This document shows, piece by piece, positions 36,781 to 49,903 of a stretch of DNA of 64,000 nucleotides. The notes under the pieces were generated by a model. That model was not told the DNA's origin and did not search any database. It saw only the letters and a list, made by a program, of their open reading frames with translations. Origin of the DNA: an uncultured Planctomycetia bacterium (GTDB lineage: Bacteria; Omnitrophota; Gorgyraeia; Tantalellales; Tantalellaceae); the NCBI GenBank assembly GCA_964527765.1, contig CAZGQR010000002.1:50986-114985 (forward strand). The letters are read 5' to 3'. Numbering within the stretch: the first letter of the stretch is position 1; every line of letters begins with the position of its first letter. The position numbers and the translations under genes were made by a program.

Positions 36781-36846
36781 TTGACAAGCCGATATAAAAG
36801 TATTATATTTGTGAAATCCGGAACGAAGTCTGTGAATATTATCACA
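36781..36846 (+). promoter_or_regulatory. Sigma70 promoter (TTGACA-17-TATATT) followed by a Rex operator (TGTGAATATTATCACA) immediately upstream of rex
   Basis: -35 at 36781-36786 and -10 at 36804-36809. An inverted repeat TGTGAA-N4-ATCACA at 36831-36846 matches the Rex consensus TTGTGAA-N4-TTCACAA; an extra half-site TTGTGAAAT lies at 36809. Confidence 0.6.
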
Positions 36847-36847
36847 A

Positions 36848-37480
36848 ATGATCATGAATGGAAAGAAAATACCCGAAAGCACCATCTCCCGTCTTTTTGT
36901 CTACCTGAGAGAGATTGCCGAACTTGCCAAATTGAACATACGCACGATCTCGTCCGCTGAATTGGGGGAGAGGACCAACCTGAGCGACGCTCAGGTCAGG
37001 AAGGATCTCGGGTATTTCGGGCAGTTCGGCGTGAGCGGTTCGGGTTATGATACGGCTGAACTTAAGAAAGCGCTGGAAAAGATACTCGGCAAGGACAAGA
37101 CCTGGAATGTCGCAGTTGTGGGCGTGGGGCATCTTGGTTCGGCCCTGCTTTCCTATACCGGGTTCGAGAGGCACGGGCTTGAAATAGTGGCCGCGTTTGA
37201 TACCGATCCGGAAAAGGTCGGCAAGCTGGACGGCCTGACCGTGCGGGCGATAGACGAGCTCCCGAAAACGGCGGCCGATAAAAAGATATCCATTGCCATC
37301 ATAGCGGTCCCGGCCGAAAACGCGCAGGAAGTAGCGGAGAGACTGGTCGGTGCGGGAGTTAAATGTATACTGAATTTCGCGCCCGTCAGCTTGAATACCC
37401 CGGAGGACGTTAAAGTCAAGAATGTCGATCTCTCGCGGGAGCTGGAAACATTATCGTATTTTCTGGTGAATAAAAAATAG
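36848..37480 (+). CDS. rex: Redox-sensing transcriptional repressor Rex
   Basis: PESTISRLFVYLREI..., the Rossmann region VAVVGVGHLGSALL, and ILNFAP; closely resembles Bacillus Rex. Confidence 0.9.
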   Translation: MIMNGKKIPESTISRLFVYLREIAELAKLNIRTISSAELGERTNLSDAQVRKDLGYFGQFGVSGSGYDTAELKKALEKILGKDKTWNVAVVGVGHLGSALLSYTGFERHGLEIVAAFDTDPEKVGKLDGLTVRAIDELPKTAADKKISIAIIAVPAENAQEVAERLVGAGVKCILNFAPVSLNTPEDVKVKNVDLSRELETLSYFLVNKK

Positions 37481-37495
37481 GCCAAAGATCCGAAA

Positions 37496-38530
37496 ATGCT
37501 GCACATCTCCAACAAAAATTTTGTAAAGCTGCTGGGATCCCTGAAAAGGGATTACCGGGTCTACGTGCCCGTGAAGAAAGACGACCAGCGGTTCTACCGG
37601 GAATATACGGAATTCAGCGATGACATCGTGATCGGCGAAGTAAGAGCTTTCGAACCTCTCAAGGCTTTTTTTACGCGCGCAAGGGAAAAAGTAGCGGAGG
37701 ATTTCAAGCCGGACATACCCCATGCCGGCGACAAGCCGTTCGCCATCGTGGGCGTGAAGGCCTGCGACCTGAAAGGCCTTAAAATCCAGGATCATGTCTT
37801 CATGGACCACGATTACAAGGACCCTTTTTATGCCAGGACCCGTGAAGCAAATCTCATTATCTCGGCGGATTGCACCTGCGCGATAGAAACGTGTTTCTGT
37901 CTCGCGGTGGGCGTGGAGCCGCATCCGAGGGAAGATTTCGATATCAATCTTTCAACAACGGACGACGGATTTCTCATCGAAACGGGATCGGAAAAAGGGG
38001 AAAGGATCGTTGAGAAAAATCTTTCGCTCTTTCAGGAGGCAAGCGACAGGTTCATCTCCAGGAGGGACAGGAAAAGAGAAAATGTCATCAAGGAAGTGGA
38101 GAAAAATATCAGGGAGAACGGCGTTCCGGACGAGCAACTTTTTGAAGGGATCGTCGAAAGGAATTACGAGTCGGATATATGGAACGACGAAGCCCAGACC
38201 TGCGTGGAATGCGGAGCGTGCACTATCATATGCCCGACCTGCCACTGTTTTCTTCTTTACGATCAGAAGGACGAGCAGCGGATGGCGCGCCTGCGCATAT
38301 GGGATTCCTGCATGATAAAAGACTATGCCAGGGTCGCCGGCGGCGGCAATCCGAGAAAGAAACTATGGATGCGGCTCCGGAACAGGTTTGAGAAAAAGTT
38401 TGACTTCTTTCCGAAAGCGGCGGACATATACGCCTGTACCGGGTGCGGACGCTGCATATCGGCGTGTCCCGCGAAGATCGACATAAGAGAGGTTCTTAAA
38501 AGGCTGGTTACCGGCAATGAAGAAAAGTGA
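37496..38530 (+). CDS. Fe-S subunit, AsrA/HydB(sulfhydrogenase beta)-like 4Fe-4S dicluster protein
   Basis: CTCAIETCFC, CVECGACTIICPTCHCF and CTGCGRCISACP cluster motifs. Confidence 0.65.
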   Translation: MLHISNKNFVKLLGSLKRDYRVYVPVKKDDQRFYREYTEFSDDIVIGEVRAFEPLKAFFTRAREKVAEDFKPDIPHAGDKPFAIVGVKACDLKGLKIQDHVFMDHDYKDPFYARTREANLIISADCTCAIETCFCLAVGVEPHPREDFDINLSTTDDGFLIETGSEKGERIVEKNLSLFQEASDRFISRRDRKRENVIKEVEKNIRENGVPDEQLFEGIVERNYESDIWNDEAQTCVECGACTIICPTCHCFLLYDQKDEQRMARLRIWDSCMIKDYARVAGGGNPRKKLWMRLRNRFEKKFDFFPKAADIYACTGCGRCISACPAKIDIREVLKRLVTGNEEK

Positions 38531-39344
38531 GAACATATACAGGCCCATCGAGGCGGAAGTGCTTGAGGTCATAACCGAAAGCCGGACCATCAAGACGTTC
38601 AAGCTTAAACCCAGGGAAGATCTGACCTTTGTGGCCGGCCAGTTCATCGAGCTGACCATTCCCGGCGTGGGGGAGGCGCCGTTCACCCCTTCATCGAATC
38701 CCGCGATCAAGGAAACGATGGAAGTGACGATAATGAAGGCGGGCAAGGTCACCGAAAAGGTCCACCAGCTGGCCAAAGGCGATATTGTCGGGTTGAGGGG
38801 CCCTTACGGTGACGGCTACCCCATGGACCATTTCGCGGGCAAGGAAGTACTGGTCTTCGGCGGGGGTGTCGGCCTCGCGCCGCTGAGAAGCCTGATGCAC
38901 GCGCTTTTTAACAGGATAGATGATTTCAAGAAGATATATTTCAGATATGGCTCGAAGACCCCCGGGGATATCATATATAAGGAAGAGATCAGGAAATGGG
39001 AAAAAAGAAAAGACCTGGATTACAGGATAACCGTCGATGCCGGGGATGATAAGTGGAAAGGGCACGTAGGGCTGGTCACGACGATCTTGGACGACAAGAT
39101 GGGCATGGACTTCGGCTCGGCGATAGCGGTTGTCTGCGGTCCGCCGATAATGATGAAATTCGGGACCTCCAAACTCTTGGAGCTGGGTTTCAGGGAAGAA
39201 AATATATATCTCTCCATGGAGAAGAACATGTCCTGCGGCCTCGGCAAGTGCGGGCATTGCAGGATAGGGACATACTATGCCTGTAAGGACGGCCCTGTTT
39301 TTACTTATGACAAGATAAAGGATTTTCACGGAATATGGGACTAG
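38517..39344 (+). CDS. FAD/NAD(P)-binding oxidoreductase subunit (PyrK/AsrB/HydG-like) with C-terminal [2Fe-2S]
   Basis: FAD_binding_6/NAD_binding_1 layout (RPIEAEV...GQFIEL..., VLVFGGGVGLAPL) and CGLGKCGHCRIGTYYAC. Confidence 0.75.
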   Translation: MKKSENIYRPIEAEVLEVITESRTIKTFKLKPREDLTFVAGQFIELTIPGVGEAPFTPSSNPAIKETMEVTIMKAGKVTEKVHQLAKGDIVGLRGPYGDGYPMDHFAGKEVLVFGGGVGLAPLRSLMHALFNRIDDFKKIYFRYGSKTPGDIIYKEEIRKWEKRKDLDYRITVDAGDDKWKGHVGLVTTILDDKMGMDFGSAIAVVCGPPIMMKFGTSKLLELGFREENIYLSMEKNMSCGLGKCGHCRIGTYYACKDGPVFTYDKIKDFHGIWD

Positions 39345-39913
39345 ACGGTATGGATACAAGCGCCGAACAGATCCACCAGGGAAAGATAAACACCGAGCCG
39401 AAGAAGGGTAAGGACAAACGGCTTTTTATCGATCTCGATGTCTGCGCTTCCGGGGAGTGCAAGGAATGCGTCGTCAAGTGCAGTTATTTTTACCACCGCC
39501 AGACCGTGAATAACGGTATCATTTCTATCATAGAGCTTGCCGCGTATGCGCTTGTCTGCCGCAGGTGCGAAGAGCCGCATTGTGTCAATGCCTGTCCGGT
39601 AGAGGCGCTTGAGCAAGAGAAGGAGAAGGACAAGTTTCTGGTAAGGCACAACATGCGGTGTATCAGCTGCGGGTCGTGCTCGCATGCGTGCCCTTACGGC
39701 ACGATATACCCGGAGGCCGTGCCCCTGCTTGTCCACAACTGCGATTTCTGTCTGGACAGGAGGGATGAGAAAGATGAACCGCTTTGCATAACCACCTGTC
39801 CTTACGGGGCGTTGAGCCTGAAAAAGGGCGATATTGAACTGGATGAGAATACTTTTCTCGTGGGGGATAACCTGATAGTCCATTCCACGCACTGGGACCG
39901 GGAGAAGGCATGA
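39335..39913 (+). CDS. Poly-ferredoxin (HycB-like, about four [4Fe-4S] motifs)
   Basis: CRRCEEPHCVNACP, CISCGSCSHACPYG, CDFCLDRRDEKDEPLCITTCPYG. Confidence 0.75.
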   Translation: MGLDGMDTSAEQIHQGKINTEPKKGKDKRLFIDLDVCASGECKECVVKCSYFYHRQTVNNGIISIIELAAYALVCRRCEEPHCVNACPVEALEQEKEKDKFLVRHNMRCISCGSCSHACPYGTIYPEAVPLLVHNCDFCLDRRDEKDEPLCITTCPYGALSLKKGDIELDENTFLVGDNLIVHSTHWDREKA

Positions 39914-40833
39914 TATACGTATTGTATCTTTTATTTTTCGGTTTTTTCCTGACGGCCGCCGTGGGCCTTTTTGCCAGCTGGATCGACAGGAAAGTAACGG
40001 CGCGCGTGCAGTACCGCGTCGGGCCGCCCGTTCTCCAGCCGCTTATCGATATCATAAAACTCCTCGGCAAGGAGACACTTGTCCCGGCGGGCGCTTCAAA
40101 AACGACCTTTCTGCTGGCTCCGGTCCTGGGTCTGGGGAGCGTGATACTGGTCTCGACGCTTTTGTGGGTGAACGATATAAATGTGGGACAGGGTTTTATG
40201 GGGGATATAATAGTGGCCTTATATCTTTTGACGATACCTTCCATAAGCATTATAATCGGGGGTTTTGCTTCGGCCAATCCGCTGGCCAGTCTGGGTGCGT
40301 CCCGGGAGATGAAACTCATCCTCGGATATGAACTCCCGTTCGTTCTTGCGATGCTGGTCCCCGTGATAAAGGCCGGTTATTCTATCAGGATAGGGGATAT
40401 TCTTCTTTTTCAGGCCCGGAGCGGGGTAATAGCCGGAAACCCCTCAGGCATACTGGCTCTGGTGGTGGCCCTGATGTGCGTGCAGGCGAAACTGGCTCTG
40501 GTGCCTTTTGATATCCCCGAGGCCGAAACGGAGATCTCGGGAGGAGCGCTCATCGAATATTCGGGGGCCGGTCTTGCGGTCTATCGCCTCATGAAGAACA
40601 TGCTTCTTTTTACGCTGCCGTTCTTCCTGATAATACTTTTTATGGGCGGTTTAAGGTTCGACGGCATCCATCTATTGTACGGCGTGTTGAAATACGTAGG
40701 GCTTGTGGCCCTGATAACGGTCATAAGGAATACCAATCCGCGGGTCAGGATCGACCAGGCCGTCAAATTCTTCTGGGGACCCATGACGGTCATCGCGGCA
40801 ATAGCGGTAGTGCTGGCTTTTAAAGGTTTATAA
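39910..40833 (+). CDS. Group-4 hydrogenase membrane subunit (NuoH/HycD/EchB/MbhM-like)
   Basis: WIDRKVTARVQYRVGPP is the complex-I subunit 1 signature; 8 TM helices. Confidence 0.85.
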   Translation: MIYVLYLLFFGFFLTAAVGLFASWIDRKVTARVQYRVGPPVLQPLIDIIKLLGKETLVPAGASKTTFLLAPVLGLGSVILVSTLLWVNDINVGQGFMGDIIVALYLLTIPSISIIIGGFASANPLASLGASREMKLILGYELPFVLAMLVPVIKAGYSIRIGDILLFQARSGVIAGNPSGILALVVALMCVQAKLALVPFDIPEAETEISGGALIEYSGAGLAVYRLMKNMLLFTLPFFLIILFMGGLRFDGIHLLYGVLKYVGLVALITVIRNTNPRVRIDQAVKFFWGPMTVIAAIAVVLAFKGL

Positions 40834-40851: not shown

Positions 40852-41277
40852 ATGAGTTTCAAGTTGAAAGCACTTTTAAAATCTCCGTGGGTGTTCCATC
40901 TCTCGACGGGCAGTTGCAACAACTGCGACATCGAGATACTGGACTGCCTTACCCCGAGGTTTGACATCGAAAGGTTCGGGATGCTTCTCGCCCCGAGCAT
41001 AAAACATGCGGATGTTCTTCTGGTCACGGGATCCTGTAACAGAAAATCCGCCGAGAGACTGAAGAGACTGTACGAACAGGCGCCCAAACCCTGCCTGGTG
41101 GTCGCGATAGGGGAGTGTTCCCTTTCGAGAGGGATGTTCATACACAGCTATAACTGTCCCGTGCCGTTGGATAAGATCATTCCCGTGGACGTGTACATCC
41201 CGGGCTGTCCGCCTAAACCGGAAGCCATCATCGCGGGCGTGGTGAAGCTGATAGAAAAAGTGAAGAGCGGAAAATGA
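40852..41277 (+). CDS. [NiFe] hydrogenase small subunit (NuoB/HycG/MbhJ-like)
   Basis: GSCNNCDIE...GSCN...GCPPKP carries the NuoB-type proximal cluster cysteines. Confidence 0.85.
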   Translation: MSFKLKALLKSPWVFHLSTGSCNNCDIEILDCLTPRFDIERFGMLLAPSIKHADVLLVTGSCNRKSAERLKRLYEQAPKPCLVVAIGECSLSRGMFIHSYNCPVPLDKIIPVDVYIPGCPPKPEAIIAGVVKLIEKVKSGK

Positions 41278-41747
41278 CGCGCAAAGAGATCTTAAAGAAC
41301 ATACAGGAAAAGTTCAAGAAGGATATAATCGATGTTTTCGACAAGCATCCGAAACGGGTGTATATCGAGATCAAACCCGGATCGATAGTCAAGATCGCCG
41401 GTTATATGTTCAAAGAACTGGGCACAAGGTTCAATATAGCCACGGGGGTGGATCTAAGAGAGCATATGGAGATCCTGTACCATTTCACCGACGAGGATAT
41501 AAACCTGTTGATCTCCCTGAGGGTGAAACTGCCCAAGGATAAATTAGAGATAGATTCGCTTGCTCCTGTTTTCGAAGGCGCGAACTGGATAGAAAGGGAG
41601 ATGCACGAACTTCTGGGTATCACTTTTAAAGGGCATCCTGACATGAGAAGGCTGCTTCTGCCGGACGAATGGCCCGAGGGCGTGTATCCCTTGAGGGCCG
41701 ACTATGAGGAATGGGACGAAAAGGCGATAAGGGACAGGGGATTATAG
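41274..41747 (+). CDS. NuoC/MbhK-like 30 kDa subunit
   Basis: 157 aa; ...NWIEREMHELLGITFKGHPDMRRLLLPDEW is a Complex1_30kDa motif. Confidence 0.8.
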   Translation: MTRKEILKNIQEKFKKDIIDVFDKHPKRVYIEIKPGSIVKIAGYMFKELGTRFNIATGVDLREHMEILYHFTDEDINLLISLRVKLPKDKLEIDSLAPVFEGANWIEREMHELLGITFKGHPDMRRLLLPDEWPEGVYPLRADYEEWDEKAIRDRGL

Positions 41748-42935: not shown

Positions 42936-43534
42936 ACGGCGAGATCAAGGTCCGCATACAGGAAATGTCCGGGATCATCTCCGAGATGATCGATCTCGTT
43001 TTCCGGGGCTTTATGGAAAATGATATGCATATTCTTGACAAGAGCCTGGACAAGGAACGCGCGCTCGACGATCTGGAAAAAGAGATCACCGCCGGTATCG
43101 TGAAACTTTCCAAAGGGCTCAGCGACAGGGAAAGAAAGAAGCTTGTTATAGCGGGGCAGATCGCCGAGAATATCGAGCGCATGGGCGATGAACTGCGCTA
43201 TCTGACCGAACGCATCGAGCTCAAGATCGCGGATAAGCTTTATTTCAGCGATAAAGGGGTCGAGCAGTATAAGGAAGTTTTTGAGAAGATGCAGAGGTCG
43301 GTGAGCCTGATCGTGAGGTTCCTGGGTGACGATGATGCCGAGGTCCTGGATAAGGTCCTGGAGAACGGCGACCAGATCAAGGAATTGATCGAAAGATACA
43401 GGGCCGAGCATATCGACCGTCTGGCCAGGGGGATATGCGAGCCGAGGGCGGCGAACATGTATTTTGACATGCTTGATTTTACCGGGAACATCGCCAGGCA
43501 CTGCACGAATATAGCGAGGATCTCCAAAAAATAA
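42932..43534 (+). CDS. PhoU-domain protein (two PhoU-like repeats)
   Basis: QIAENIERMGDELRYL and FTGNIARHCTNIARI resemble the paired PhoU E(D)-x3-D/ERIGD...HATNIA motifs. Confidence 0.45.
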   Translation: MNGEIKVRIQEMSGIISEMIDLVFRGFMENDMHILDKSLDKERALDDLEKEITAGIVKLSKGLSDRERKKLVIAGQIAENIERMGDELRYLTERIELKIADKLYFSDKGVEQYKEVFEKMQRSVSLIVRFLGDDDAEVLDKVLENGDQIKELIERYRAEHIDRLARGICEPRAANMYFDMLDFTGNIARHCTNIARISKK

Positions 43535-45186
43535 TGACAATACCCGAACTTTTCAGATTAGATAATTTGTCCGTTTTTGTAGGCATATTCATCGGTGTTT
43601 TCTCGCTGCTGGTCATCTTTTATTCTTTCGGCTTTATGCGCGGAAGAAAAGGGCTGGTGAGGTATTACCTGTATCTCGTTCTCACTTTTCTCGCCTCGCT
43701 CGGCACGGTCTTTTCCAATAACCTCATACTCTTTATTGTCTTCTGGGGATTTCTGGGGCTTCTTTTATACCTCCTGATCGGTTTCGGGCAGAGAGATGGT
43801 ACCGCTTATACGGCCAAGAAGGCGTTCATAATAATCGGGGGGACCGATGCCTTTATGCTGCTGGGGCTGGCTTTTATCTGGCATATTGCGGGAACGTTCC
43901 AGATGGATAAGATAAGCATTGCCCTGGATTCCAGGTCCGCGATCCTTGCGTACATATGCCTTGCGGCGGGAGCGTTCGCCAAGACCGGGGCGATGCCTTT
44001 TCATACCTGGGTTCCCGATACGGCCGAGGACGCGCCCACGCCGGTGGCTGCGTTCCTCCCGGCTTCCCTGGACAAGCTCCTGGGGATATATTTCCTTGCC
44101 AGGATATCCCTGGACATGTTCCGGATGAACCTGGGCATGAATACGTTCCTGATGGTAGTGGGCAGCGTCACTATCGTGGCCGCGGTCATGATGGCGCTCA
44201 TCCAGCATGATATGAAAAGGCTTCTGGGGTATCATGCGGTAAGTCAGGTCGGGTACATGGTCCTGGGTATCGGCACCGGCAACCCCGTCGGCATCGCGGG
44301 GGGAGTGTTCCACATGCTGAACAACGCGATATACAAGTCGTGCCTTTTTCTTTCCGGCGGCGCGGTGGAAAAAAAGGCGGGGACGACCGACCTGGAAAAA
44401 CTGGGCGGCTTTGCCAGGATCATGCCCATTAGTTTCCTGACGTTCCTGATAGCGTCGTTCTCGATATCGGGGGTTCCGCCCTTCAACGGGTTCGCTTCGA
44501 AGTGGATGATTTATCAGGGGGTGATAGAAACGGCCTCGGGTGGCGGACGGCTGTGGGTGGTATGGCTCGTTGCCGCCGTGTTCGGAAGCGCCCTGACGCT
44601 GGCGAGTTTCATGAAGCTTGTGCATACCGTGTTTCTCGGCCAGCCTTCCCGCGAGGCGCGCGAAAGAAGGTCCGAGATGAGGGATACCAGTCCTTCCATG
44701 CTGATCCCCTCGATGATACTTGCTTTCCTTTGCGTGATCTTCGGCGTTTTTGCTTACCGGATCCCTCTTAAGATGTTCATATTCCCGAGTCTGGGAGGAG
44801 AAGCGGGATTTACCGGCATATGGGATCCGTCCCTGGCCACGGCTCTGATAATCGTGGGTGTAGCGATAGGGTTGGTTATCTACCTGATCGGCACTGCTTT
44901 AAAGACGAGAACGACGGAAGTGTTCATCGGCGGAGAGATCCTGGAGAAGAAACCCGACATGAGGATTTCCGGGACCGAGTTTTATGAGACCATCAGGGAA
45001 ATGGGGTGCCTTAAGGCCATATACGCCCTGGCGGAGAAGAAAGTGTTTGATATATATGAAGTCGGCGTCAAGTTCACGCTTGCTTTTAACAGGGTATTGC
45101 GTTACATTCACAACGGAGTGCTCCTTACGTACCTGTCCTGGTGTCTTTTGGGGATGGTGATACTCTTTTACGTTCTGGTAAGGTGA
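43534..45186 (+). CDS. Mrp/complex-I antiporter-like subunit (MrpA/D, NuoL/M, MbhH-like proton-conducting membrane transporter)
   Basis: 550 aa, about 14 TM; HAVSQVGYMVLGIG and WVPDTAEDAPTPVAAFL (conserved Proton_antipo_M motifs). Confidence 0.8.
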   Translation: MTIPELFRLDNLSVFVGIFIGVFSLLVIFYSFGFMRGRKGLVRYYLYLVLTFLASLGTVFSNNLILFIVFWGFLGLLLYLLIGFGQRDGTAYTAKKAFIIIGGTDAFMLLGLAFIWHIAGTFQMDKISIALDSRSAILAYICLAAGAFAKTGAMPFHTWVPDTAEDAPTPVAAFLPASLDKLLGIYFLARISLDMFRMNLGMNTFLMVVGSVTIVAAVMMALIQHDMKRLLGYHAVSQVGYMVLGIGTGNPVGIAGGVFHMLNNAIYKSCLFLSGGAVEKKAGTTDLEKLGGFARIMPISFLTFLIASFSISGVPPFNGFASKWMIYQGVIETASGGGRLWVVWLVAAVFGSALTLASFMKLVHTVFLGQPSREARERRSEMRDTSPSMLIPSMILAFLCVIFGVFAYRIPLKMFIFPSLGGEAGFTGIWDPSLATALIIVGVAIGLVIYLIGTALKTRTTEVFIGGEILEKKPDMRISGTEFYETIREMGCLKAIYALAEKKVFDIYEVGVKFTLAFNRVLRYIHNGVLLTYLSWCLLGMVILFYVLVR

Positions 45187-45190
45187 TGAT

Positions 45191-45748
45191 ATGGTAGAGC
45201 TTTATGTATTGCTTGTTCTGATGATCATCGGCGCCTTGATCGCGATCGAGATAAAAGATCTGCTTTCCTCCGTGATAGCGGTGGGCGCCGCGGGGCTTGC
45301 GCTTTCGATAATCTTTTTGATACTTAAGGCGCCGGACGTGGCTATCACTCAGCTGGTCGTCGAGATATTGGCCCTGATCATACTGGTCAGGGGGACCCTC
45401 AAGAGGGATCTGCCTTTTTCAACGACGGGCAGGTGGCTTCTGAACACTATTATCACCGCGTGTTTTGTGGTCATATTTCTGGCGGTGGGGATGAAATGCT
45501 TTAAGGACCTGCCTGAATTCGGCTATCCGATAATGAAGGTCGCCGGTACCTATATCCAGGAAGGGCTCCAGAAGACAGGCGCCGTCAATCTTGTGGCTTC
45601 GGTGATACTGGACTTCAGGGCTTATGACACGCTCGGCGAGGCGACTATCCTTTTCACGGCTGTTATAGGTGTTCTGGCGATCGTGAGGAAGATAGGCAGG
45701 AAAAAGGTGGACGAAGAGATCAGGGAAGAAGACGAGGAAGAAATATGA
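45191..45748 (+). CDS. MnhB-related N-terminal domain protein (DUF4040; MbhD/E-like)
   Basis: Hydrophobic 185 aa; LSSVIAVGAAGLALSIIFLILKAPDVAITQLVVE pattern. Confidence 0.55.
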   Translation: MVELYVLLVLMIIGALIAIEIKDLLSSVIAVGAAGLALSIIFLILKAPDVAITQLVVEILALIILVRGTLKRDLPFSTTGRWLLNTIITACFVVIFLAVGMKCFKDLPEFGYPIMKVAGTYIQEGLQKTGAVNLVASVILDFRAYDTLGEATILFTAVIGVLAIVRKIGRKKVDEEIREEDEEEI

Positions 45749-46221
45749 GCAGGGAACGCGAAAAAGGCATGTCACTGATCGTGAAGACGATAACCCGCCT
45801 CACGGTAGGGCTTATATTTCTTTACGGGGTTTACATAGTGACTCACGGGCATCTTTCGCCCGGCGGCGGTTTTGCCGGCGGGGTGATCATAGCGCTGTCG
45901 TTCGTCCACCTCATGCTGGCGTACGGCAAGGAAAAGGCTTTTGAGAAGCTCTCGAGGGCCGCCGCTTCGCTGTTTGAGGATGCCGGGGCGATACTTTTCC
46001 TGAGTATCGCTCTTCTGGGGTTTACCGGGGGCTATTTCTTTCTTAACTTCATATCCAAAGGTCAGCCTTTTAAGCTGTTCAGCGCGGGGATCATCCTGCC
46101 CTGCAACATAGCCATAAGCCTGAAGGTCGGCGCCGGGATCTTTGCGATAGTCGTTGCGCTTGTTCTCTTGGAGTTTGAACTGGAAGAAGAGAAAAAGGAA
46201 GAGAAAAAAGGAAAAAGATGA
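45745..46221 (+). CDS. Na+/H+ antiporter MnhB-subunit-like protein
   Basis: TRLTVGLIFLYGVYIVTHGHLSPGGGFAGGVIIA is characteristic of the MnhB domain. Confidence 0.7.
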   Translation: MSREREKGMSLIVKTITRLTVGLIFLYGVYIVTHGHLSPGGGFAGGVIIALSFVHLMLAYGKEKAFEKLSRAAASLFEDAGAILFLSIALLGFTGGYFFLNFISKGQPFKLFSAGIILPCNIAISLKVGAGIFAIVVALVLLEFELEEEKKEEKKGKR

Positions 46222-46556
46222 GCATCTATCTGCTTTGCCTGATAATTTTTAGTCTGGGCATTTACTGCGTCGTACGGAAACGTAACGTCATCAAGATCAT
46301 AATAGGCGTCATCATACTGGAATACGCGGTCAACCTGTTCTTTGTGCTTGTGGCTTACCGTGTTAACGGCCGCGCTCCGATATTTTCGGCGGAGCAGGAA
46401 GTGCTGAACATGGTGGACCCGCTGCCGCACGCGCTGGTGCTTACCGCGATCGTTATCGGGCTGGCGACCACCGCTCTGCTTGTGGGGATCGCCATGCGAC
46501 TTTATGAAAAATACAGGACTTTTGATATCACGAAGATAAGGGAGCTAAAGGGATGA
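46218..46556 (+). CDS. MnhC/NuoK-like subunit
   Basis: 112 aa, 3 TM, in the NuoK/MrpC size class. Confidence 0.65.
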   Translation: MSIYLLCLIIFSLGIYCVVRKRNVIKIIIGVIILEYAVNLFFVLVAYRVNGRAPIFSAEQEVLNMVDPLPHALVLTAIVIGLATTALLVGIAMRLYEKYRTFDITKIRELKG

Positions 46557-48058
46557 TGCCGGCAGAGAACATAATACCGCTTTTTGTCGCCGTAGCGCTT
46601 GCCGGGGCCTTTATTGTCGCTCTTGCAGGCGGGAAGGTGAGGTGGGCGCCCGACGCGCTGGGGAACCTCTTCACGCTGGCCCTGACGGTCTTATCCGTCG
46701 TATCGGTGCTGGCGGTAAGGCAGTACGGGGTTCTTGTCTACAGCGTCGGCGCGTGGAAGCCTCCCGTGGGCATAGCGATGGTGCTGGACGGCTTGACCTC
46801 GTTCATGCTGGTGACCGTGAACCTGATGGCGTTTATCATAACCGTTTTTTCGGTGAATTACATGGAGAAATACACCTCCAAATGGAAATTCTATTGCCTG
46901 TTCCTGCTGATGGTGGCGGGCATGAACGGCGTCATTATAAGCGGTGACATGTTCAATCTGTTCGTGTTCCTGGAGATCGCTTCCGTCGCGAGTTACGCCC
47001 TGGTCGCGTTCGGGACGGAACGCCAGGAGCTTGAAGCGGCTTTTAAATACGCGGTCATGGGCACCGTGGGATCGCTTTTCACTCTTCTCGGCATCGTCTT
47101 TCTGTACAGTTATACCTCTACGCTTAACATGGCGGACATGGCGCAGGTCCTGATCCAGAAAGGTGGGAAGGACATCACTCTCATGGTGAGCGTCTTGTTC
47201 ATAATGGGGTTCGGCCTGAAGGCGGCGCTCGTTCCGTTCCACGCCTGGCTTCCGGATGCCCATCCTTCGGCTCCCGCGCCGATATCGGCCATGCTCTCGG
47301 GTGTGTTGATAAAATCACTCGGTATCTACGCCCTGTGCAGGGTATTCTACAACGTGATCGGCATAGACCAGGCCGTTTCTTCCGTGCTGCTTTTCCTTGG
47401 CGCTTTGTCCATGGTGGTCGGGGTGTTCCTGGCCATAGGCCAATGGGATTTCAAACGCCTTCTGGCGTATCACTCCATAAGCCAGATAGGCTATGTTGTT
47501 CTCGGGATCGGACTGGGGACCCCGCTCGGCATCCTGGGCGGCCTCTTCCATCTTTTTAATCATTCCGTGTTCAAATCGCTGCTCTTTTTGAATTCCGGGG
47601 CCGTGGAATATTCGACCGGGACGCGCGACCTGAAGGAGATGGGAGGACTGGCATCAAAGATGCCGCTGACAGGAACGACAAGCCTTATAGCTTCGATGTC
47701 CATCGCCGGGATCCCGCCTTTCAACGGGTTCTGGAGCAAGCTGATCATAATAATAGCGGCGGTTCAGGCCGGCAGGTACGGGTACGCGTTCTGGGCCGTT
47801 GTAGCAAGCGTGCTGACCCTGGCGTCCTTCATGAAGGTCATGAAGTACGCCTTTCTGGACAGGCTGAAGGAAAAATGGAACGCGGTGAAAGAAGTGCCCG
47901 TTTTCATGAAGTTGTCCATGAGTGCCCTGGCGCTTATTTGCATTCTGGGAGGGGTCTTACTTGTCGGAGCCCTTAATGATGCTTTTCTTGAACGGGCGAC
48001 CGATGTTCTTCTGGAGGGGACAAAGTACGCGGCCATTGTTTTTAAGGGGATCGGGTAA
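46553..48058 (+). CDS. MrpD/NuoN-like antiporter-type subunit
   Basis: 501 aa; HAWLPDAHPSAPAPISAML and HSISQIGYVVLGIG motifs. Confidence 0.8.
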   Translation: MMPAENIIPLFVAVALAGAFIVALAGGKVRWAPDALGNLFTLALTVLSVVSVLAVRQYGVLVYSVGAWKPPVGIAMVLDGLTSFMLVTVNLMAFIITVFSVNYMEKYTSKWKFYCLFLLMVAGMNGVIISGDMFNLFVFLEIASVASYALVAFGTERQELEAAFKYAVMGTVGSLFTLLGIVFLYSYTSTLNMADMAQVLIQKGGKDITLMVSVLFIMGFGLKAALVPFHAWLPDAHPSAPAPISAMLSGVLIKSLGIYALCRVFYNVIGIDQAVSSVLLFLGALSMVVGVFLAIGQWDFKRLLAYHSISQIGYVVLGIGLGTPLGILGGLFHLFNHSVFKSLLFLNSGAVEYSTGTRDLKEMGGLASKMPLTGTTSLIASMSIAGIPPFNGFWSKLIIIIAAVQAGRYGYAFWAVVASVLTLASFMKVMKYAFLDRLKEKWNAVKEVPVFMKLSMSALALICILGGVLLVGALNDAFLERATDVLLEGTKYAAIVFKGIG

Positions 48059-48059: not shown

Positions 48060-48557
48060 ATGAAAAGCAGAATAGTTTTATTTGTCCTGGCGTATTTAAT
48101 CTGGTGTTTCTTGAACTGGGTGCCGGACTGGCAGCATCTCCTGGTCGGGGTCTTTGCGGCGTTTCTTGTCGCGTTTCTGACCGGCGATCTTTTCATGACC
48201 AGGCCGCGGATCCTGAAGAACCCCCGGCGCTACTGGTATTTTATGGCGCAATACATACCCAGATTTTTATGGGAATGTTTCAAGGCGAACATCGACGTGG
48301 CATACCGTGTTATTCACCCGAAACTCCCCATAAATCCGGGGATCGTCAAGGTCAAGACGAAATTAAAAACGGATACGGCCCTTACGTTCCTGGCCAATTC
48401 GATAACGCTTACGCCGGGGACCATGAGCGTGGATATAGACAGGGAAAAAGGGGTCCTGTACATACACTGGATCAATGTGAAAGAGACGGACGTTGAGGCC
48501 GCGACCGAGGCCATTGTCGGAAGGTTTGAGAGGATACTCGCAAGGATTTTTGAATAA
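48060..48557 (+). CDS. MnhE (MrpE)-like subunit
   Basis: MKSRIVLFVLAYLIWCFLNWVPDWQHLLVGVFAAFLVAFLTG is the typical MnhE N-terminus; the track ORF starts earlier (47922) in the same frame. Confidence 0.65.
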   Translation: MKSRIVLFVLAYLIWCFLNWVPDWQHLLVGVFAAFLVAFLTGDLFMTRPRILKNPRRYWYFMAQYIPRFLWECFKANIDVAYRVIHPKLPINPGIVKVKTKLKTDTALTFLANSITLTPGTMSVDIDREKGVLYIHWINVKETDVEAATEAIVGRFERILARIFE

Positions 48558-48568
48558 AGGAATGACGA

Positions 48569-48939
48569 ACATGAAAATAATAAGATGGTTTTTAGGGGCG
48601 GTTGTTTTGATAGTCATCATCGCCATGGTCGTCGTAAGGCCGTTTCCTTTTCTTTTTTATCCCGATCTTCCTTATATAGGCGTTCTCGGCAGGGCCATGT
48701 ACATACTTGTCCTGGCGTGCGCCTTGTGCCTTTACCGGGTGTTCATGGGGCCCACAGGCGCCGACCGGATCGTAGCTATCGATATATTCGGTATCATGAT
48801 AATCGGTTTCTGCGCGGTGCTTACCATTTCGACCGGCAGATCATGGTACATAGATATAGGGATAGCCTGGGCACTGCAGAGTTTCATAGCCACGCTCGCG
48901 CTTTCAAAATATCTGGAAGGAAAGGGTTTCGATGAGTGA
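48569..48939 (+). CDS. MnhF (MrpF)-like subunit
   Basis: MKIIRWFLGAVVLIVIIAMVV... 3 TM; its position between the mnhE-like and mnhG-like genes supports the call. Confidence 0.55.
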
Positions 48940-49267
48940 TATTATAGGGCTGGTATTTATAGCTGTCGGTCTTGCTTTTGACTTTTTCGGGTGTCTCGGC
49001 CTCGTAAGGCTCCCGGATGTTTATAACCGCCTGCAGGCCGCGACGAAAAGCGTTACCCTGGGGACGTGCAGTATCCTTTTCGGGACGTTCCTGATCGTGG
49101 GGGCCAATGCCGCGGGGCTGAAATCTCTTCTTTGTATCATATTTATTTTGCTGACCTCGCCTGTGGCGGCGCATGCGGTGGCAAGAGGCGCCCACAGGGC
49201 CGGATTCAAACTATGGGATAAAAGCGTTATTGACAGGTACGCTGAGGACAAGGAAGGCGAGATATAA
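48932..49267 (+). CDS. MnhG (MrpG)-like subunit
   Basis: MSDIIGLVFIAVGLAFDFFGCLGLVRLPDVYNRLQAATKSVTLG is the typical MnhG/PhaG N-terminus. Confidence 0.75.
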   Translation: MSDIIGLVFIAVGLAFDFFGCLGLVRLPDVYNRLQAATKSVTLGTCSILFGTFLIVGANAAGLKSLLCIIFILLTSPVAAHAVARGAHRAGFKLWDKSVIDRYAEDKEGEI

Positions 49268-49903
49268 ATGAGAATACCGAAGCCGAAGATAAGAGAGATA
49301 ATAGAAGCCGTGAAAGCGCTTATCAAAGGTCCGTATACGTCAAGGTTCCCCAAGGTCGGGCATGAGCCGTATCCGAGTTTCCGGGGGCAGCCGAAGTATA
49401 ACGACGAGAAATGCGTGGGGTGCCTGGCCTGCGTGCATGTCTGTCCGGTCGGGGCGCTTGATTTTAAGGATTCCGCCGATCCCAAGGATCCCAAAAGGAC
49501 GTTATACCACCACACGGATACCTGTATATTCTGCGGACAGTGTGAGGCTGCGTGCATAGCCGATAACGAGGGAATAAAGCTTTCCAGGGACTGGGAACTT
49601 TCTTTCTTTGAAAGAAAAGAAGCCACGGAGAGCATCGAAAAAGAACTGCAGCTGTGCGAGATATGCGGCGATCCCATCGCCTGCAAGGATCATTTAAAAT
49701 GGATATCTCAAAAGTTAGGTGAATTGACCTATTCAAGCCCTACCTTGTATCTGTCCCGTCTTAAAAGTCTCGGCATCGTAGATGAGAATATTATTTCCGC
49801 GATGAAGGATTACGGTCGTTCCGACAGGACAAAGATCCTCTGCGCCCGCTGCAGGAGGGAAACGACTCTTACCACGAAAGAGTCCGAAACGACTAAAAAG
49901 TAA
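49268..49903 (+). CDS. NuoI/HycF/MbhN-like 2x[4Fe-4S] ferredoxin subunit
   Basis: CVGCLACVHVCPVGAL and CIFCGQCEAACIA. Confidence 0.75.
   Translation: MRIPKPKIREIIEAVKALIKGPYTSRFPKVGHEPYPSFRGQPKYNDEKCVGCLACVHVCPVGALDFKDSADPKDPKRTLYHHTDTCIFCGQCEAACIADNEGIKLSRDWELSFFERKEATESIEKELQLCEICGDPIACKDHLKWISQKLGELTYSSPTLYLSRLKSLGIVDENIISAMKDYGRSDRTKILCARCRRETTLTTKESETTKK

What the first reader, a model, noticed from the sequence alone, without database searches (positions are those of the whole stretch)
36781..49903. Rex-controlled hybrid group 4 [NiFe] hydrogenase: NAD(P)H module + Hyc/Ech-like core + complete Mrp-antiporter-like module, with an embedded PhoU-like gene
A single co-directional gene string (36848-49903) sits behind a promoter carrying a Rex box (TGTGAA-N4-ATCACA). 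It encodes, in order: Rex; an AsrA/HydB-like Fe-S protein; an AsrB/HydG/PyrK-like FAD-NAD(P) [2Fe-2S] protein; a HycB-like polyferredoxin; NuoH-, NuoB-, NuoC- and NuoD-like hydrogenase subunits; a PhoU-domain protein; seven Mrp/Mnh-like subunits (A/D-like, DUF4040, B, C, D, E, F, G); and a NuoI-like ferredoxin.

The large subunit has intact Ni-Fe cysteine motifs (RICGICSTSH, DPCYCCTER).

This architecture joins a sulfhydrogenase-type NAD(P)H input module to an Mbh/Mrp-type energy-converting hydrogenase. I infer that it could couple NAD(P)H oxidation or H2 production to Na+/H+ translocation under redox (NADH/NAD+) control by Rex. It differs in order and composition from the Pyrococcus Mbh operon (mbhA-N), and the PhoU-domain insert between the large subunit and the antiporter module is something I have not seen described.
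Basis: partly seen in the sequence, partly recalled or inferred. Interest (0 to 1): 0.7.

Follow-up and report, generated by a model that had tools for sequence, protein, structure and literature searches.

The report
Rex-controlled Hun hydrogenase operon with PhoU-like gene
This is a real operon in an Omnitrophota-like genome for the already published but never purified "Hun" membrane [NiFe] hydrogenase–antiporter complex; new here are conserved Rex operators, sequence evidence for NAD(P)H input, and a PhoU-like protein family found almost only inside these operons.

Summary
The Ni-Fe motifs (RICGICSTSH, DPCYCCTER) and the Rex box are real.

The architecture is not new. It is the 16-subunit "Hun" Ni-Fe hydrogenase–Na+/H+ antiporter supercomplex (Glass et al. 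2021), also called the "Mbh-Mrp-oxidoreductase type". It is classed as HydDB group 4g, was already reported in Omnitrophica, and has never been characterised biochemically.

Three points in this work were not found in the papers searched:
- **Rex control.** 32 of 38 strong Rex boxes in 1.2 Mb of related loci lie just upstream of the operon, against 0.09 expected.
- **Electron input.** HunA and HunB are full-length homologues of the beta and gamma (NADPH diaphorase) subunits of Pyrococcus sulfhydrogenase I. Their FAD, NAD(P) and 2Fe-2S motifs are conserved across the family. This favours NAD(P)H input over the published ferredoxin assumption, but does not prove it.
- **The PhoU-like gene.** It belongs to a Hun-dedicated family: 64 of 68 metagenome loci carry it inside a hun operon, always at one end of the Mrp-like gene block. 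Only 8 of 74 close relatives keep it, so it is dispensable.

Verdict: a known kind of system, with a new accessory and regulatory variant. Moderate interest.

The parts
36781..36809 (+). Sigma-70-like promoter, TTGACA-17 nt-TATATT
   Evidence: Best promoter-like match in 36400-55000, 11 of 12 positions. It is a consensus match only, not a mapped promoter.
36809..36826 (.). Degenerate upstream Rex half-operator TTGTGAAATCCGGAACGA. Left half 7/7, right half 3/7. It abuts the -10 hexamer.
   Evidence: Read from the sequence. Many relatives carry two boxes 21 bp apart at the same relative positions.
36830..36847 (.). Rex operator CTGTGAATATTATCACAA, 12 of 14 consensus positions, ending 1 nt before the rex ATG
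   Evidence: The box position is conserved upstream of rex or hunA in relatives: 32 of 38 strong boxes in 1.2 Mb fall there, P about 1e-69.
36848..37480 (+). rex, the redox-sensing repressor (210 aa)
   Evidence: Pfam Put_DNA-bind_N plus CoA_binding. NCBIfam Rex 265 bits against a cut-off of 126. GxGxxG motif VGVGHLG.
37496..38530 (+). hunA, an AsrA / sulfhydrogenase-beta-like Fe-S protein (344 aa)
   Evidence: Fer4_22. PDB 9nez_B, E 3e-47, residues 6-339. NCBIfam ShyB 197 bits, HydB 172, AsrA 142, all below the equivalog cut-offs.
38517..39344 (+). hunB, an AsrB / sulfhydrogenase-gamma / PyrK-like FAD-NAD(P)-[2Fe-2S] flavoprotein (275 aa)
   Evidence: FAD_binding_6, NAD_binding_1 and DHODB_Fe-S_bind. 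PDB 9nez_C, E 2e-53. Motifs PFTPSS, GGGxGxAP and Cx4CxxC...C are conserved in 63-65 of 65 homologues.
39335..39913 (+). hunC, a HycB/CooF/DmsB-type ferredoxin with four Cys motifs (192 aa)
   Evidence: Fer4_11. The four Cys clusters are read from the sequence.
39910..40833 (+). hunD, NuoH/MbhM-like membrane subunit
   Evidence: PF00146, E 1.7e-62.
40852..41277 (+). hunE, NuoB-like small subunit with four Cys for one [4Fe-4S] cluster
   Evidence: PF01058. CNNC, GEC and GCPP motifs.
41274..41747 (+). hunF, NuoC-like subunit
   Evidence: PF00329.
41751..42935 (+). hunG, the group 4 [NiFe] large subunit. L1 motif RICGICSTSH, L2 motif DPCYCCTER, plus a 35-aa C-terminal tail.
   Evidence: PF00374 and PF00346. 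Closest PDB chains are MbhL 6cfw_L (1e-90) and HycE 7z0s_E (9e-83). The motifs are present in 80 of 81 relatives.
42932..43534 (+). PhoU-like accessory protein (200 aa). Overlaps the hunG stop by 4 nt and the hunH start by 1 nt.
   Evidence: PF01895, two repeats. AlphaFold2 pLDDT 95, TM-score 0.85-0.88 to PhoU crystal structures. The family lies inside hun operons in 64 of 68 metagenome loci.
43534..45186 (+). hunH, MrpA/D- and NuoL-like antiporter subunit (550 aa)
   Evidence: Proton_antipo_M and Proton_antipo_N.
45191..45748 (+). hunI, MbhD+MbhE (equivalent to the MrpA C-terminal part)
   Evidence: PF13244 and PF20501.
45745..46221 (+). hunJ, MnhB-like subunit
   Evidence: PF04039.
46218..46556 (+). 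hunK, MnhC/NuoK-like subunit
   Evidence: PF00420.
46553..48058 (+). hunL, the second antiporter-like subunit (MrpD/NuoN-like, 501 aa)
   Evidence: Proton_antipo_M, E 9.5e-69.
48060..48557 (+). hunM, MnhE-like subunit (corrected coordinates)
   Evidence: PF01899, E 2e-49. Start codon chosen.
48562..48939 (+). hunN, MrpF-like subunit (corrected coordinates)
   Evidence: PF04066. Start codon chosen.
48932..49267 (+). hunO, MnhG-like subunit
   Evidence: PF03334.
49268..49903 (+). hunP, NuoI/HycF-like 2x[4Fe-4S] ferredoxin with a Cys-containing C-terminal extension (211 aa)
   Evidence: Fer4_7. NCBIfam formate hydrogenlyase Fe-S subunit family, 87 bits, below its cut-off.
49929..50411 (+). hycI-type maturation endopeptidase
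   Evidence: PF01750. It follows hunP in nearly all relatives.
50404..54061 (+). hyp maturation genes: hypA 50404-50646, hypF C-terminal half 50747-51826, hypC 51798-52055, hypD 52057-53067, hypE 53069-54061
   Evidence: Pfam. hypF matches positions 391-739 of the 741-position TIGR00143 model.

Best explanation
The region is one Rex-repressed operon encoding the Hun complex. Hun is a group 4 (HydDB 4g-like) membrane-bound [NiFe] hydrogenase fused to a complete Mrp-type cation/proton antiporter module. The operon is followed by its own maturation genes.

**Proposed working (inferred).**
- HunB, a flavoprotein with FAD, an NAD(P)-binding domain and a [2Fe-2S] cluster, exchanges a hydride with NAD(P)H.
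- Electrons then pass through the Fe-S clusters of HunA, the four-cluster ferredoxin HunC, the NuoI-like HunP and the NuoB-like HunE to the Ni-Fe site of HunG, where protons and H2 interconvert.
- This wiring resembles formate hydrogenlyase with the formate dehydrogenase replaced by the beta-gamma diaphorase of a group 3b sulfhydrogenase.
- Redox turnover is coupled to H+/Na+ movement through HunD and the Mrp-like subunits HunH to HunO, which include two antiporter-like subunits.

**Direction.** NAD(P)H to H2 is uphill at standard conditions. The complex would therefore either spend ion-motive force to vent reductant as H2, or run near equilibrium and conserve a little energy at the very low H2 pressures of sediments and groundwater.

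**Regulation.** Rex bound to one or two operators overlapping and just downstream of the promoter keeps the operon off. When NADH/NAD+ rises, the operon is derepressed. This fits a reductant-disposal role.

**The PhoU-like protein.** It is a soluble six-helix-bundle accessory or regulatory subunit specific to Hun. It most likely docks on the cytoplasmic face at the junction between the hydrogenase arm and the Mrp-like module. It is dispensable in most lineages.

**What is shown and what is inferred.** Shown: gene content, motifs, homologies, operator conservation and the genomic linkage of the PhoU-like family. Inferred: the electron donor, the direction of the reaction, ion coupling and the role of the PhoU-like protein.
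For: **Identity as Hun.**
- Same 16 genes in the same order as described by Glass et al..
- The diagnostic CGIC...CYCC motifs are present.
- 80 genome loci with a large subunit 80-88% identical share the order hunA-P plus hycI. Two of them are labelled Atribacteria or Atribacterota.

**NAD(P)H module.**
- HunA and HunB are full-length homologues of sulfhydrogenase I beta and gamma.
- NCBIfam places them between the NAD(P)-dependent sulfhydrogenase beta/gamma families and AsrA/AsrB.
- The FAD motif PFTPSS (65/65), the dinucleotide motif GGGxGxAP (63/65) and the [2Fe-2S] cysteines (64/65) are conserved.
- HydDB describes group 3b as NADP-coupled and reversible.

**Rex.**
- The Rex gene passes the NCBIfam cut-off.
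- 32 of 38 strong boxes in 1.2 Mb lie in the 320 bp upstream of the first operon gene, against 0.09 expected.
- Boxes are present in 15/23 loci with rex upstream, 9/9 with rex downstream and 4/25 without an adjacent rex.
- Paired boxes 21 bp apart recur.
- The boxes sit at and just after the best promoter match.

**PhoU-like protein.**
- PhoU fold at pLDDT 95 and TM-score 0.85-0.88.
- 64 of 68 family members found in metagenomes lie inside hun operons: 12 between hunG and hunH, 52 between hunO and hunP.
- Start and stop codons overlap those of its neighbours.
- In a split operon it stays with the Mrp half.
- The nearest relatives outside the family are C-terminal PhoU domains of Na+/Pi cotransporters.
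Against: - No biochemical data exist for any Hun complex.
- The published interpretation takes ferredoxin as the donor. All characterised group 4 relatives (Mbh, Ech) use ferredoxin, formate or CO.
- NAD(P)H (-320 mV) to H2 (-414 mV) cannot drive outward ion pumping under standard conditions. The coupling direction is therefore uncertain.
- HunA and HunB score below every NCBIfam equivalog cut-off. They are homologues, not demonstrated orthologues, of the sulfhydrogenase diaphorase.
- Rex also controls the ferredoxin-dependent Ech in C. bescii, so Rex control does not identify the substrate.
- Fermentibacteria/Aegiribacteria-type loci mostly lack both an adjacent rex gene and a strong Rex box (only L076 has a strong box, about 240 bp upstream of hunA). 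Across all loci without an adjacent rex, only 4 of 25 carry a strong box.
- The PhoU-like gene is absent from 66 of 74 close relatives and is patchy on the tree. It cannot be essential, and its role is pure inference.
- Co-transcription is inferred from gene spacing only.
Confidence: 0.6

Rival explanations
1. This is the ferredoxin-driven Hun model as published. HunA, HunB and HunC accept electrons from reduced ferredoxin. Exergonic proton reduction then drives H+/Na+ export through the Mrp module, as in Pyrococcus Mbh. The flavoprotein HunB serves only as an electron-transfer subunit.
For: Glass et al. propose this model and HydDB labels group 4g "ferredoxin-coupled (putative)". The closest solved large subunit is that of the ferredoxin-dependent Mbh. 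The NuoI-like HunP corresponds to the ferredoxin-docking subunit of Mbh (my own knowledge of the Mbh structure). The energetics favour outward pumping. Rex also regulates the ferredoxin-dependent Ech.
Against: A one-electron ferredoxin-to-Fe-S relay needs no FAD/NAD(P) flavoprotein, yet the FAD and dinucleotide motifs of HunB are conserved throughout the family. The best homologues of HunA and HunB are NAD(P)(H)-linked modules: sulfhydrogenase beta-gamma, AsrAB and PyrK. Mbh works without any such module.
Confidence: 0.25
2. Hun is a dual-input or three-way enzyme. Reduced ferredoxin enters at HunP or HunC and NAD(P)(H) at HunB. The complex then works as an ion-coupled ferredoxin:NAD(P)+ oxidoreductase with H2 as an overflow valve, or it combines both donors to make H2.
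For: The complex contains both a NuoI-like ferredoxin-type entry subunit and a diaphorase module. The chain of roughly ten Fe-S clusters is long. Some relatives insert a further molybdopterin oxidoreductase between hunB and hunC, so the input end is modular.
Against: Only one flavin site is predicted and no NuoF/HydB- or NfnB-like bifurcating subunit is present. Nothing in the sequence requires two donors. This rival is not distinguishable from the main explanation with sequence data.
Confidence: 0.12
3. Hun works mainly as an uptake hydrogenase. It oxidises H2 to reduce NAD(P)+ (-18 kJ/mol under standard conditions) and exports ions, supplying both NAD(P)H and ion-motive force.
For: This direction is downhill at high H2. 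HydDB describes group 3b enzymes with the same diaphorase as reversible. The Mrp module has two antiporter-like subunits.
Against: Rex logic (derepression when NADH is high) fits an NADH-consuming enzyme better than an NADH-producing one (inference). The organisms carrying hun are described as fermenters in low-H2 habitats.
Confidence: 0.1
4. The PhoU-like gene is not a Hun component. It would be a phosphate- or metal-related regulator, or a metallochaperone for Ni/Fe delivery, that merely rides in the operon.
For: The first repeat keeps the PhoU metal-binding-type motif ERMGDE, and C169 and H190 are invariant. No hypB is seen in the cluster. The gene is dispensable in most relatives.
Against: The family is essentially confined to hun operons and always sits at a junction of the Mrp block. 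It scores 32 bits against the 130-bit cut-off of the PhoU equivalog and has no pst neighbours. Relatives that lack the PhoU-like gene have the same hyp gene set.
Confidence: 0.2

Closest known systems
Hun Ni-Fe hydrogenase–Na+/H+ antiporter supercomplex (Glass et al. 2021, bioRxiv 10.1101/536078). The same system is called "Mbh-Mrp-oxidoreductase type" by Matheus Carnevali et al. 2019 (PMC6349859) and Meheust et al. 2020 (10.1101/765248).
   Same: All 16 genes hunA-P in the same order. AsrA/AsrB-like HunA and HunB. The CGIC...CYCC motifs in HunG. The Mrp-like HunH to HunO and the NuoI-like HunP. Already reported in Omnitrophica, Atribacteria and Elusimicrobia. Predicted from genomes only.
   Different: Those papers do not mention rex, Rex operators, NAD(P)H or a PhoU-like gene. 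They take ferredoxin as the donor or call the oxidoreductase function unknown. Here the operon carries rex in front and a PhoU-like gene between hunG and hunH.
Pyrococcus furiosus Mbh (group 4d; PDB 6CFW)
   Same: It has the closest solved large subunit (E 1e-90). [quoted passage not shown]
   Different: Mbh has 14 genes in a different order, with the MrpEFG-like genes first. It has one antiporter-like subunit instead of two and no HunABC module. It uses ferredoxin (my own knowledge of the Mbh literature; HydDB table).
Group 3b NADP-coupled sulfhydrogenase I of P. furiosus (PDB 9NEZ), beta and gamma subunits
   Same: HunA and HunB align full length with the beta and gamma subunits (E 3e-47 and 2e-53). 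They have the same domain set: Fer4_22, and FAD/NAD(P)/[2Fe-2S].
   Different: The catalytic subunits here are group 4 (NuoD/NuoB-like), not group 3. The enzyme is membrane-bound with an Mrp module. HunA and HunB fall below the NCBIfam equivalog cut-offs.
E. coli formate hydrogenlyase (group 4a; PDB 7Z0S)
   Same: Its large subunit is the second-closest solved one (E 9e-83). It has the same wiring logic: a soluble dehydrogenase, then a HycB-type four-cluster ferredoxin, a NuoI-like subunit, a NuoB-like subunit and the Ni-Fe site. The L2 motif DPCYSCTDR is similar and HycI processing is shared (the L2 motif and processing are from my own knowledge).
   Different: No formate dehydrogenase or molybdopterin gene is present here. 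A diaphorase module takes its place, and a full Mrp module is present.
Rex regulons of anaerobes, for example Caldicellulosiruptor bescii (PMC6391272)
   Same: Rex autoregulates and represses hydrogenase operons through TTGTGAANNNNTTCACAA operators. [quoted passage not shown]
   Different: The target there is the ferredoxin-dependent Ech. Rex control of Hun, and the rex-hunA gene fusion into one operon, were not found in the papers searched.
PhoU, and the C-terminal PhoU domains of Na+/Pi cotransporter (PF02690) proteins
   Same: Two PhoU repeats forming a six-helix bundle (TM-score 0.85-0.88). The ERxGDE motif is retained in repeat 1. The nearest relatives outside the family are transporter-attached PhoU domains.
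   Different: It is a stand-alone 200-aa protein. It scores 32 bits against the 130-bit cut-off of the PhoU equivalog. The repeat 2 motif is changed to TGNIARH. It is never next to pst genes and is found inside hun operons.

Membership tests
Hun supercomplex (Glass et al. 2021) | Sixteen genes hunA-P in the conserved order: AsrA-like, AsrB-like, ferredoxin, NuoH, NuoB, NuoC, large subunit, eight Mrp-like genes, NuoI-like | tested here: met
   for the window. The order is identical in 80 related genome loci.
Hun supercomplex (Glass et al. 2021) | Large-subunit metal-site motifs CGIC (L1) and CYCC (L2) | tested here: met
   RICGICSTSH and DPCYCCTER. Present in 80 of 81 relatives.
Hun supercomplex (Glass et al. 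2021) | Close sequence relationship to the reference HunG (RXG63129, Atribacteria) | not testable with these tools
Indirect support: two loci labelled Atribacteria or Atribacterota with the same architecture have a large subunit 84% identical to this one.
Group 4 respiratory [NiFe] hydrogenases | NuoD-like large subunit with both Ni-Fe cysteine pairs, and a NuoB-like small subunit with four Cys for one [4Fe-4S] cluster | tested here: met
   PF00374 and PF00346. Closest solved chains are MbhL and HycE. The Cys motifs are read from the sequence.
Group 4 respiratory [NiFe] hydrogenases | Subgroup assignment by HydDB (4g) | not testable with these tools
   HydDB could not be run. Glass et al. and Williams et al. 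report 4g for Hun and for the Omnitrophota enzymes.
Mbh (group 4d, Pyrococcus type) | mbhA-N gene order, a single antiporter-like subunit, and no additional oxidoreductase module | tested here: not met
   The order differs. There are two Proton_antipo_M subunits (HunH and HunL), and HunABC are present.
Formate hydrogenlyase / formate- or CO-respiring Mrp-linked hydrogenases (groups 4a, 4b) | A formate dehydrogenase or CO dehydrogenase gene in the operon | tested here: not met
   No molybdopterin or CODH domain was found in any ORF from 36848 to 54061. The hunB-hunC junction overlaps, leaving no room for one.
Group 3b sulfhydrogenase diaphorase module (beta and gamma subunits) | A Fer4_22 Fe-S subunit paired with an FAD/NAD(P)/[2Fe-2S] subunit that has intact cofactor motifs | tested here: met
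Group 3b sulfhydrogenase diaphorase module (beta and gamma subunits) | Equivalog-level similarity to HydB/HydG or ShyB/ShyC | tested here: not met
   HunA scores 197 and 172 bits against cut-offs of 690 and 750. HunB scores 183 and 178 bits against cut-offs of 650 and 600. They are homologous modules, not the same family.
Group 3b sulfhydrogenase diaphorase module (beta and gamma subunits) | NAD(P)H oxidation or reduction activity | not testable with these tools
   This needs an enzyme assay.
Rex-regulated operon | A Rex protein with a winged-helix N-terminus and an NADH-binding Rossmann domain | tested here: met
   PF06971 and PF02629. NCBIfam 265 bits against a cut-off of 126.
Rex-regulated operon | An operator matching TTGTGAANNNNTTCACAA in the promoter region, conserved in orthologous loci | tested here: met
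   12 of 14 positions at 36830-36847. Enrichment upstream of hun operons is 32 observed against 0.09 expected.
Rex-regulated operon | NADH-sensitive binding and repression | not testable with these tools
   This needs a gel-shift assay or genetics.
PhoU (phosphate signalling complex protein) | Two PhoU repeats forming a six-helix bundle | tested here: met
PhoU (phosphate signalling complex protein) | Equivalog score, and linkage to pstSCAB or phoBR | tested here: not met
   TIGR02135 scores 32 bits against a cut-off of 130. The neighbours are hun genes in 64 of 68 loci.

The most novel reading that the evidence does not exclude
Hun is not a ferredoxin-driven Mbh variant. It is an NAD(P)H:proton oxidoreductase coupled to Na+/H+ translocation, in effect a "complex I that reduces protons instead of quinone". 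This would let energy-starved fermenters vent or recapture NAD(P)H-level reductant at very low H2. A dedicated PhoU-like 17th subunit, borrowed from Na+/Pi transporters, would gate or brake the Mrp-like ion module. Rex would tie expression to the NADH/NAD+ ratio.
Probability: 0.3. Interest if true: 0.75.

Novelty: new variant of a known kind. Interest (0 to 1): 0.42.

Why it matters
Hun-type hydrogenases are widespread. The large subunit is 80% or more identical across MAGs labelled Omnitrophota, Fermentibacteria, Aegiribacteria, Atribacterota, Hydrogenedentota and Sumerlaeota. They are often reported as the only hydrogenase of uncultured subsurface fermenters, and none has been characterised.

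Metabolic reconstructions currently take ferredoxin as the donor. If the conserved flavoprotein module in fact couples the enzyme to NAD(P)H, models of redox balance, H2 thresholds and energy conservation in these lineages would change. A new class of ion-coupled NAD(P)H-linked hydrogenase would also join the complex I family.

The conserved Rex operators give a testable regulatory handle. The Hun-restricted PhoU-like family would be the first candidate soluble regulator of an Mrp-type module encountered in this work.

If ferredoxin proves to be the donor and the PhoU-like protein is a minor accessory, the locus is simply one more example of a known operon.

Tried and rejected
- **Window-only test of the Rex box.** 3 matches at 3 or fewer mismatches against 2.4 expected. 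This is not informative, so I replaced it with the comparative test.
- **First tblastn map.** One search used the wrong reading frames for MnhE and MrpF. I corrected them after translating the frames and re-ran the map.
- **Sequence search of the PDB with the PhoU-like protein.** It gave only a weak hit (1t72, E 0.003). Fold prediction and Foldseek settled the fold.
- **Does the PhoU-like gene replace a missing domain in a neighbour?** The lengths of HunG, HunH, HunO and HunP are the same in loci with and without it. Rejected.
- **Is the PhoU-like gene confined to one clade of the close relatives?** The NJ tree of HunD+G+H shows it scattered across the tree. This is better explained by repeated loss than by a single gain.
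- **Formate hydrogenlyase or CO-linked reading.** No formate dehydrogenase, CODH or molybdopterin gene is present. Rejected.
- **Internal promoters and terminators.** Promoter-like hits are not above the shuffle expectation (20 against 15 ± 4). All terminator-like hits lie inside coding sequence. There is no evidence for sub-operons.
- **Literature searches.** Searches for PhoU with Mrp or hydrogenase, for Kosmotoga Hun biochemistry and for a sulfhydrogenase I structure paper found nothing useful.
- **NADH versus NADPH specificity.** I tried to read it from the region after the dinucleotide motif. The consensus is FFRGGCKTP, with no acidic residue, similar to sulfhydrogenase I gamma. This hints at NADP(H) but is too weak to call.
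- **tRNA scan.** ARAGORN found no tRNA in the window, although a tRNA-like gene interrupted by an intron is visible by eye.

Full report
**1. What is in the sequence**

- Rex
- an AsrA/HydB-like Fer4_22 protein
- an AsrB/HydG/PyrK-like FAD-NAD(P)-[2Fe-2S] flavoprotein
- a four-cluster HycB/CooF-type ferredoxin
- NuoH-, NuoB- and NuoC-like subunits
- a NuoD-like [NiFe] large subunit
- a PhoU-domain protein
- eight Mrp/Mbh-like membrane subunits
- a NuoI-like 2x[4Fe-4S] protein

Neighbouring genes overlap or are separated by at most 25 bp. The large subunit carries RICGICSTSH and DPCYCCTER, followed by a 35-residue tail. The small subunit has the four cysteines of a proximal cluster.

Two gene models needed correction. 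MnhE is 48060-48557 and MrpF is 48562-48939.

The string continues beyond the reported end with hycI, hypA, a hypF that encodes only the C-terminal half, hypC, hypD and hypE, up to 54061. An OprB-like porin and a CbiMQO-type Ni/Co transporter follow.

The closest homologues of the large subunit come overwhelmingly from Candidatus Omnitrophota MAGs, at 85-92% identity.

**2. What it is**

The closest solved large subunits are Pyrococcus MbhL (E 1e-90) and E. coli HycE (E 9e-83). This is therefore a group 4 enzyme.

The literature search shows that this exact architecture has been described.
- Glass et al. 2021 named it Hun, a 16-subunit Ni-Fe hydrogenase–Na+/H+ antiporter supercomplex. HunA and HunB are AsrA/AsrB-like, HunC is a ferredoxin, HunD to HunG are the hydrogenase core, HunH to HunO are Mrp-like and HunP is NuoI-like.
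- They report a diagnostic CGIC...CYCC motif pair in HunG and a HydDB assignment to group 4g. They found it in Atribacteria, Omnitrophica, Elusimicrobia, Firmicutes and Kosmotoga.
- Matheus Carnevali et al. 2019 described an "enigmatic" relative in Saganbacteria whose nearest sequences were from Zixibacteria and Omnitrophica.
- Meheust et al. 2020 call it the "Mbh-Mrp-oxidoreductase type" and state that the function of the oxidoreductase is unknown.
- Williams et al. 2021 list a group 4g, Mrp-linked hydrogenase in Omnitrophota MAGs.

The window meets the defining features I could test: gene order and motifs. It is also 84% identical in HunG to loci labelled Atribacteria that have the same architecture.

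The hybrid architecture is therefore not new. What remains open is how the complex works.

**3. Comparative anatomy**

A scan of one genome per species returned 80 loci whose large subunit is 80-88% identical to this one. They are labelled Omnitrophota, Fermentibacteria, Aegiribacteria, Atribacterota, Hydrogenedentota, Sumerlaeota and others. Many labels are MAG-level and uncertain.

Mapping the window's proteins onto these loci shows that the order hunA-P plus hycI is invariant wherever the contig reaches. A few genomes split the operon at the hunG/hunH junction (L002, L040, L073).

The HunG motifs are present in 80 of 81 sequences. In HunB, three features are conserved:
- the FAD motif PFTPSS, 65 of 65
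- the dinucleotide-binding motif GGGxGxAP, 63 of 65
- the [2Fe-2S] cysteines, 64 of 65

**4. Electron input**

HunA and HunB align over their full length with the beta and gamma subunits of Pyrococcus furiosus sulfhydrogenase I (9nez_B, E 3e-47; 9nez_C, E 2e-53). NCBIfam ranks them between the NAD(P)-dependent sulfhydrogenase beta/gamma families and AsrA/AsrB, but below every equivalog cut-off.

HydDB describes the group 3b enzymes that carry this module as NADP-coupled and reversible. PyrK and NqrF, the next-best matches for HunB, are also NAD(H)-linked flavoproteins.

A flavoprotein with a conserved nicotinamide-dinucleotide site is not needed for a one-electron ferredoxin relay. This runs against the ferredoxin assumption in the Hun paper.

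The inference is not proof. NAD(P)H to H2 is uphill under standard conditions, so the Mrp module would have to consume ion-motive force, or the enzyme would have to work near equilibrium at very low H2. A second entry point for ferredoxin at HunP or HunC cannot be excluded.

The region that usually sets NADH/NADPH preference lacks an acidic residue and resembles sulfhydrogenase I gamma. This is only a weak hint towards NADP(H).

**5. Rex**

The encoded protein is a clear Rex. The box at 36830-36847 matches the consensus TTGTGAANNNNTTCACAA, as quoted in PMC6391272, at 12 of 14 positions. A degenerate second box lies 21 bp upstream and abuts the -10 hexamer of the best promoter match in the region.

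Within the window this could be chance. Across the related loci it is not.
- 32 of the 38 strong boxes in 1.2 Mb lie within the 320 bp upstream of the first operon gene, against 0.09 expected.
- Boxes occur in 15 of 23 loci with rex directly upstream of hunA.
- They occur in 9 of 9 loci where a different rex (about 43% identical) sits about 1.6 kb downstream of hycI.
- They occur in 4 of 25 loci with no adjacent rex.
- Paired boxes 21 bp apart recur.

Rex control of hun is therefore well supported for the Omnitrophota-type loci. It is not supported for the Fermentibacteria/Aegiribacteria-type loci.

Rex control does not identify the substrate, because Rex also represses the ferredoxin-dependent Ech in C. 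bescii. Neither Rex nor NAD(P)H is mentioned in the Hun paper.

**6. The PhoU-like gene**

The 200-residue product has two PhoU repeats. It is predicted with pLDDT 95 as a six-helix bundle and superposes on PhoU crystal structures at TM-score 0.85-0.88.

It scores far below the PhoU equivalog cut-off, 32 bits against 130. Its invariant residues are ERMGDE in repeat 1, C169, and a very conserved NMYFDMLDFTGNIARH segment in repeat 2.

A search that read every cluster representative finds a compact family of stand-alone proteins of about 200 residues, down to about 32% identity. The next relatives are the C-terminal PhoU domains of Na+/Pi cotransporters of about 540 residues.

Genomic context is the striking part. 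Of 68 metagenome loci recovered with family-specific peptide patterns, 64 place the gene inside a hun operon:
- 12 lie between hunG and hunH, as here. In these the large subunit is 82-88% identical to this one wherever most of it is on the contig.
- 52 lie between hunO and hunP. These belong to a second Hun clade with the large subunit about 57-69% identical, still carrying DPCYCCTER.

More distant members at 32-41% identity show the same two positions. In a closed genome with a split operon the gene heads the Mrp half.

Among the 74 close relatives in which hunG and hunH are adjacent, only 8 keep it. These 8 are scattered over the tree. Neighbouring subunits do not change in length with or without it.

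My reading is that this is a Hun-dedicated but dispensable accessory, probably ancestral and repeatedly lost. It is placed at either junction between the hydrogenase genes and the Mrp-like block. Its role as a regulator, brake or assembly factor for the ion-translocating module is inference from PhoU biology and from its kinship with transporter-attached PhoU domains. A metal-handling role is a live alternative. I found no description of it in the papers searched.

**7. Verdict**

- **Observation:** confirmed.
- **Interpretation:** partly supported. The anatomy, the sulfhydrogenase-type module, Rex control and the unreported PhoU insert are right. The claim that the architecture is unprecedented is wrong. 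The NAD(P)H coupling remains a well-founded hypothesis that conflicts with the published assumption.
- **Novelty:** a new variant (rex fused in front, PhoU-like gene inside) of a known, uncharacterised kind.
- **Interest:** moderate. It would rise sharply if NAD(P)H-driven, ion-coupled H2 metabolism were shown experimentally.

Noticed in passing
window 21127-21540 (Rfam hit 21260-21493, + strand): A group I catalytic intron (RF00028, 71 bits, E 4e-16) interrupts the anticodon loop of a tRNA-like gene. The 5' exon reads GCTCCCCGGTAGCTCAATGG... and the 3' exon ends ...GGTTCGAGTCCAACCCGGGGAGCCA. A promoter-like site lies upstream and a hairpin downstream. ARAGORN reports no tRNA in the window. 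I could not fix the exact splice sites or the anticodon by eye.
   Followed up: partly
window 50747-51826; also L002 17570-18628: hypF encodes only the C-terminal Kae1-like half (359 aa, matching positions 391-739 of the 741-position TIGR00143 model). It lacks the acylphosphatase, zinc-finger and YrdC-like parts. A closed Omnitrophota genome has the same short form of 352 aa.
   Followed up: partly
window 49929-54061: The maturation cluster is hycI-hypA-hypF'-hypC-hypD-hypE with no hypB. HypA is short, 80 aa, matching positions 1-69 of the 112-position Pfam model. hypB may lie elsewhere in the genome.
   Followed up: no
window 54623-58579: An OprB-family porin (54623-56047) is followed by CbiM (56005-56697), CbiQ (57013-57822) and an ABC ATPase (57809-58579). 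This is a likely Ni/Co uptake system placed directly after the hydrogenase maturation genes.
   Followed up: no
window 42830-42935 (HunG C-terminus); L090-L139: The tail after DPCYCCTER, which is expected to be cleaved off by HycI, is conserved (...GEDLIRLSQEKTEK...). This holds even in the second Hun clade, whose large subunit is about 57-69% identical. Such conservation is unusual for a discarded peptide.
   Followed up: no
L003-L082: HunG (80-88% identical) and HunE (79-96%) are far more conserved than the membrane subunits (HunH 43-79%) across MAGs labelled as different phyla. This points to strong constraint on the catalytic core, lateral transfer, or both.
   Followed up: no
L017, L048, L056, L059-L061, L070, L080: In one sub-clade a second type of rex (39-46% identical to the window's) lies about 1.6 kb downstream of hycI instead of upstream of hunA. 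hunA is then preceded by a near-perfect box, usually TTGTGATTTTATTCACAA, at -44 to -79.
   Followed up: partly
L002, L040, L073: Some genomes split the operon at the hunG/hunH junction. In L040 and L073 hunP and hycI follow hunG directly and the Mrp block lies elsewhere or is inverted. In L002 the Mrp half starts with the PhoU-like gene.
   Followed up: no
L030 (hunG-hunH gap 536 bp), L075 (379 bp), L049 (1832 bp): These loci have unexplained extra sequence at the hunG/hunH junction. L030 and L075 show no detectable PhoU match. L049 has the PhoU-like gene plus an extra MrpA-like fragment.
   Followed up: no
window 34876-36711: The gene immediately upstream of the operon encodes an amino-acid permease fused to a C-terminal PTS EIIA-2 domain.
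   Followed up: no
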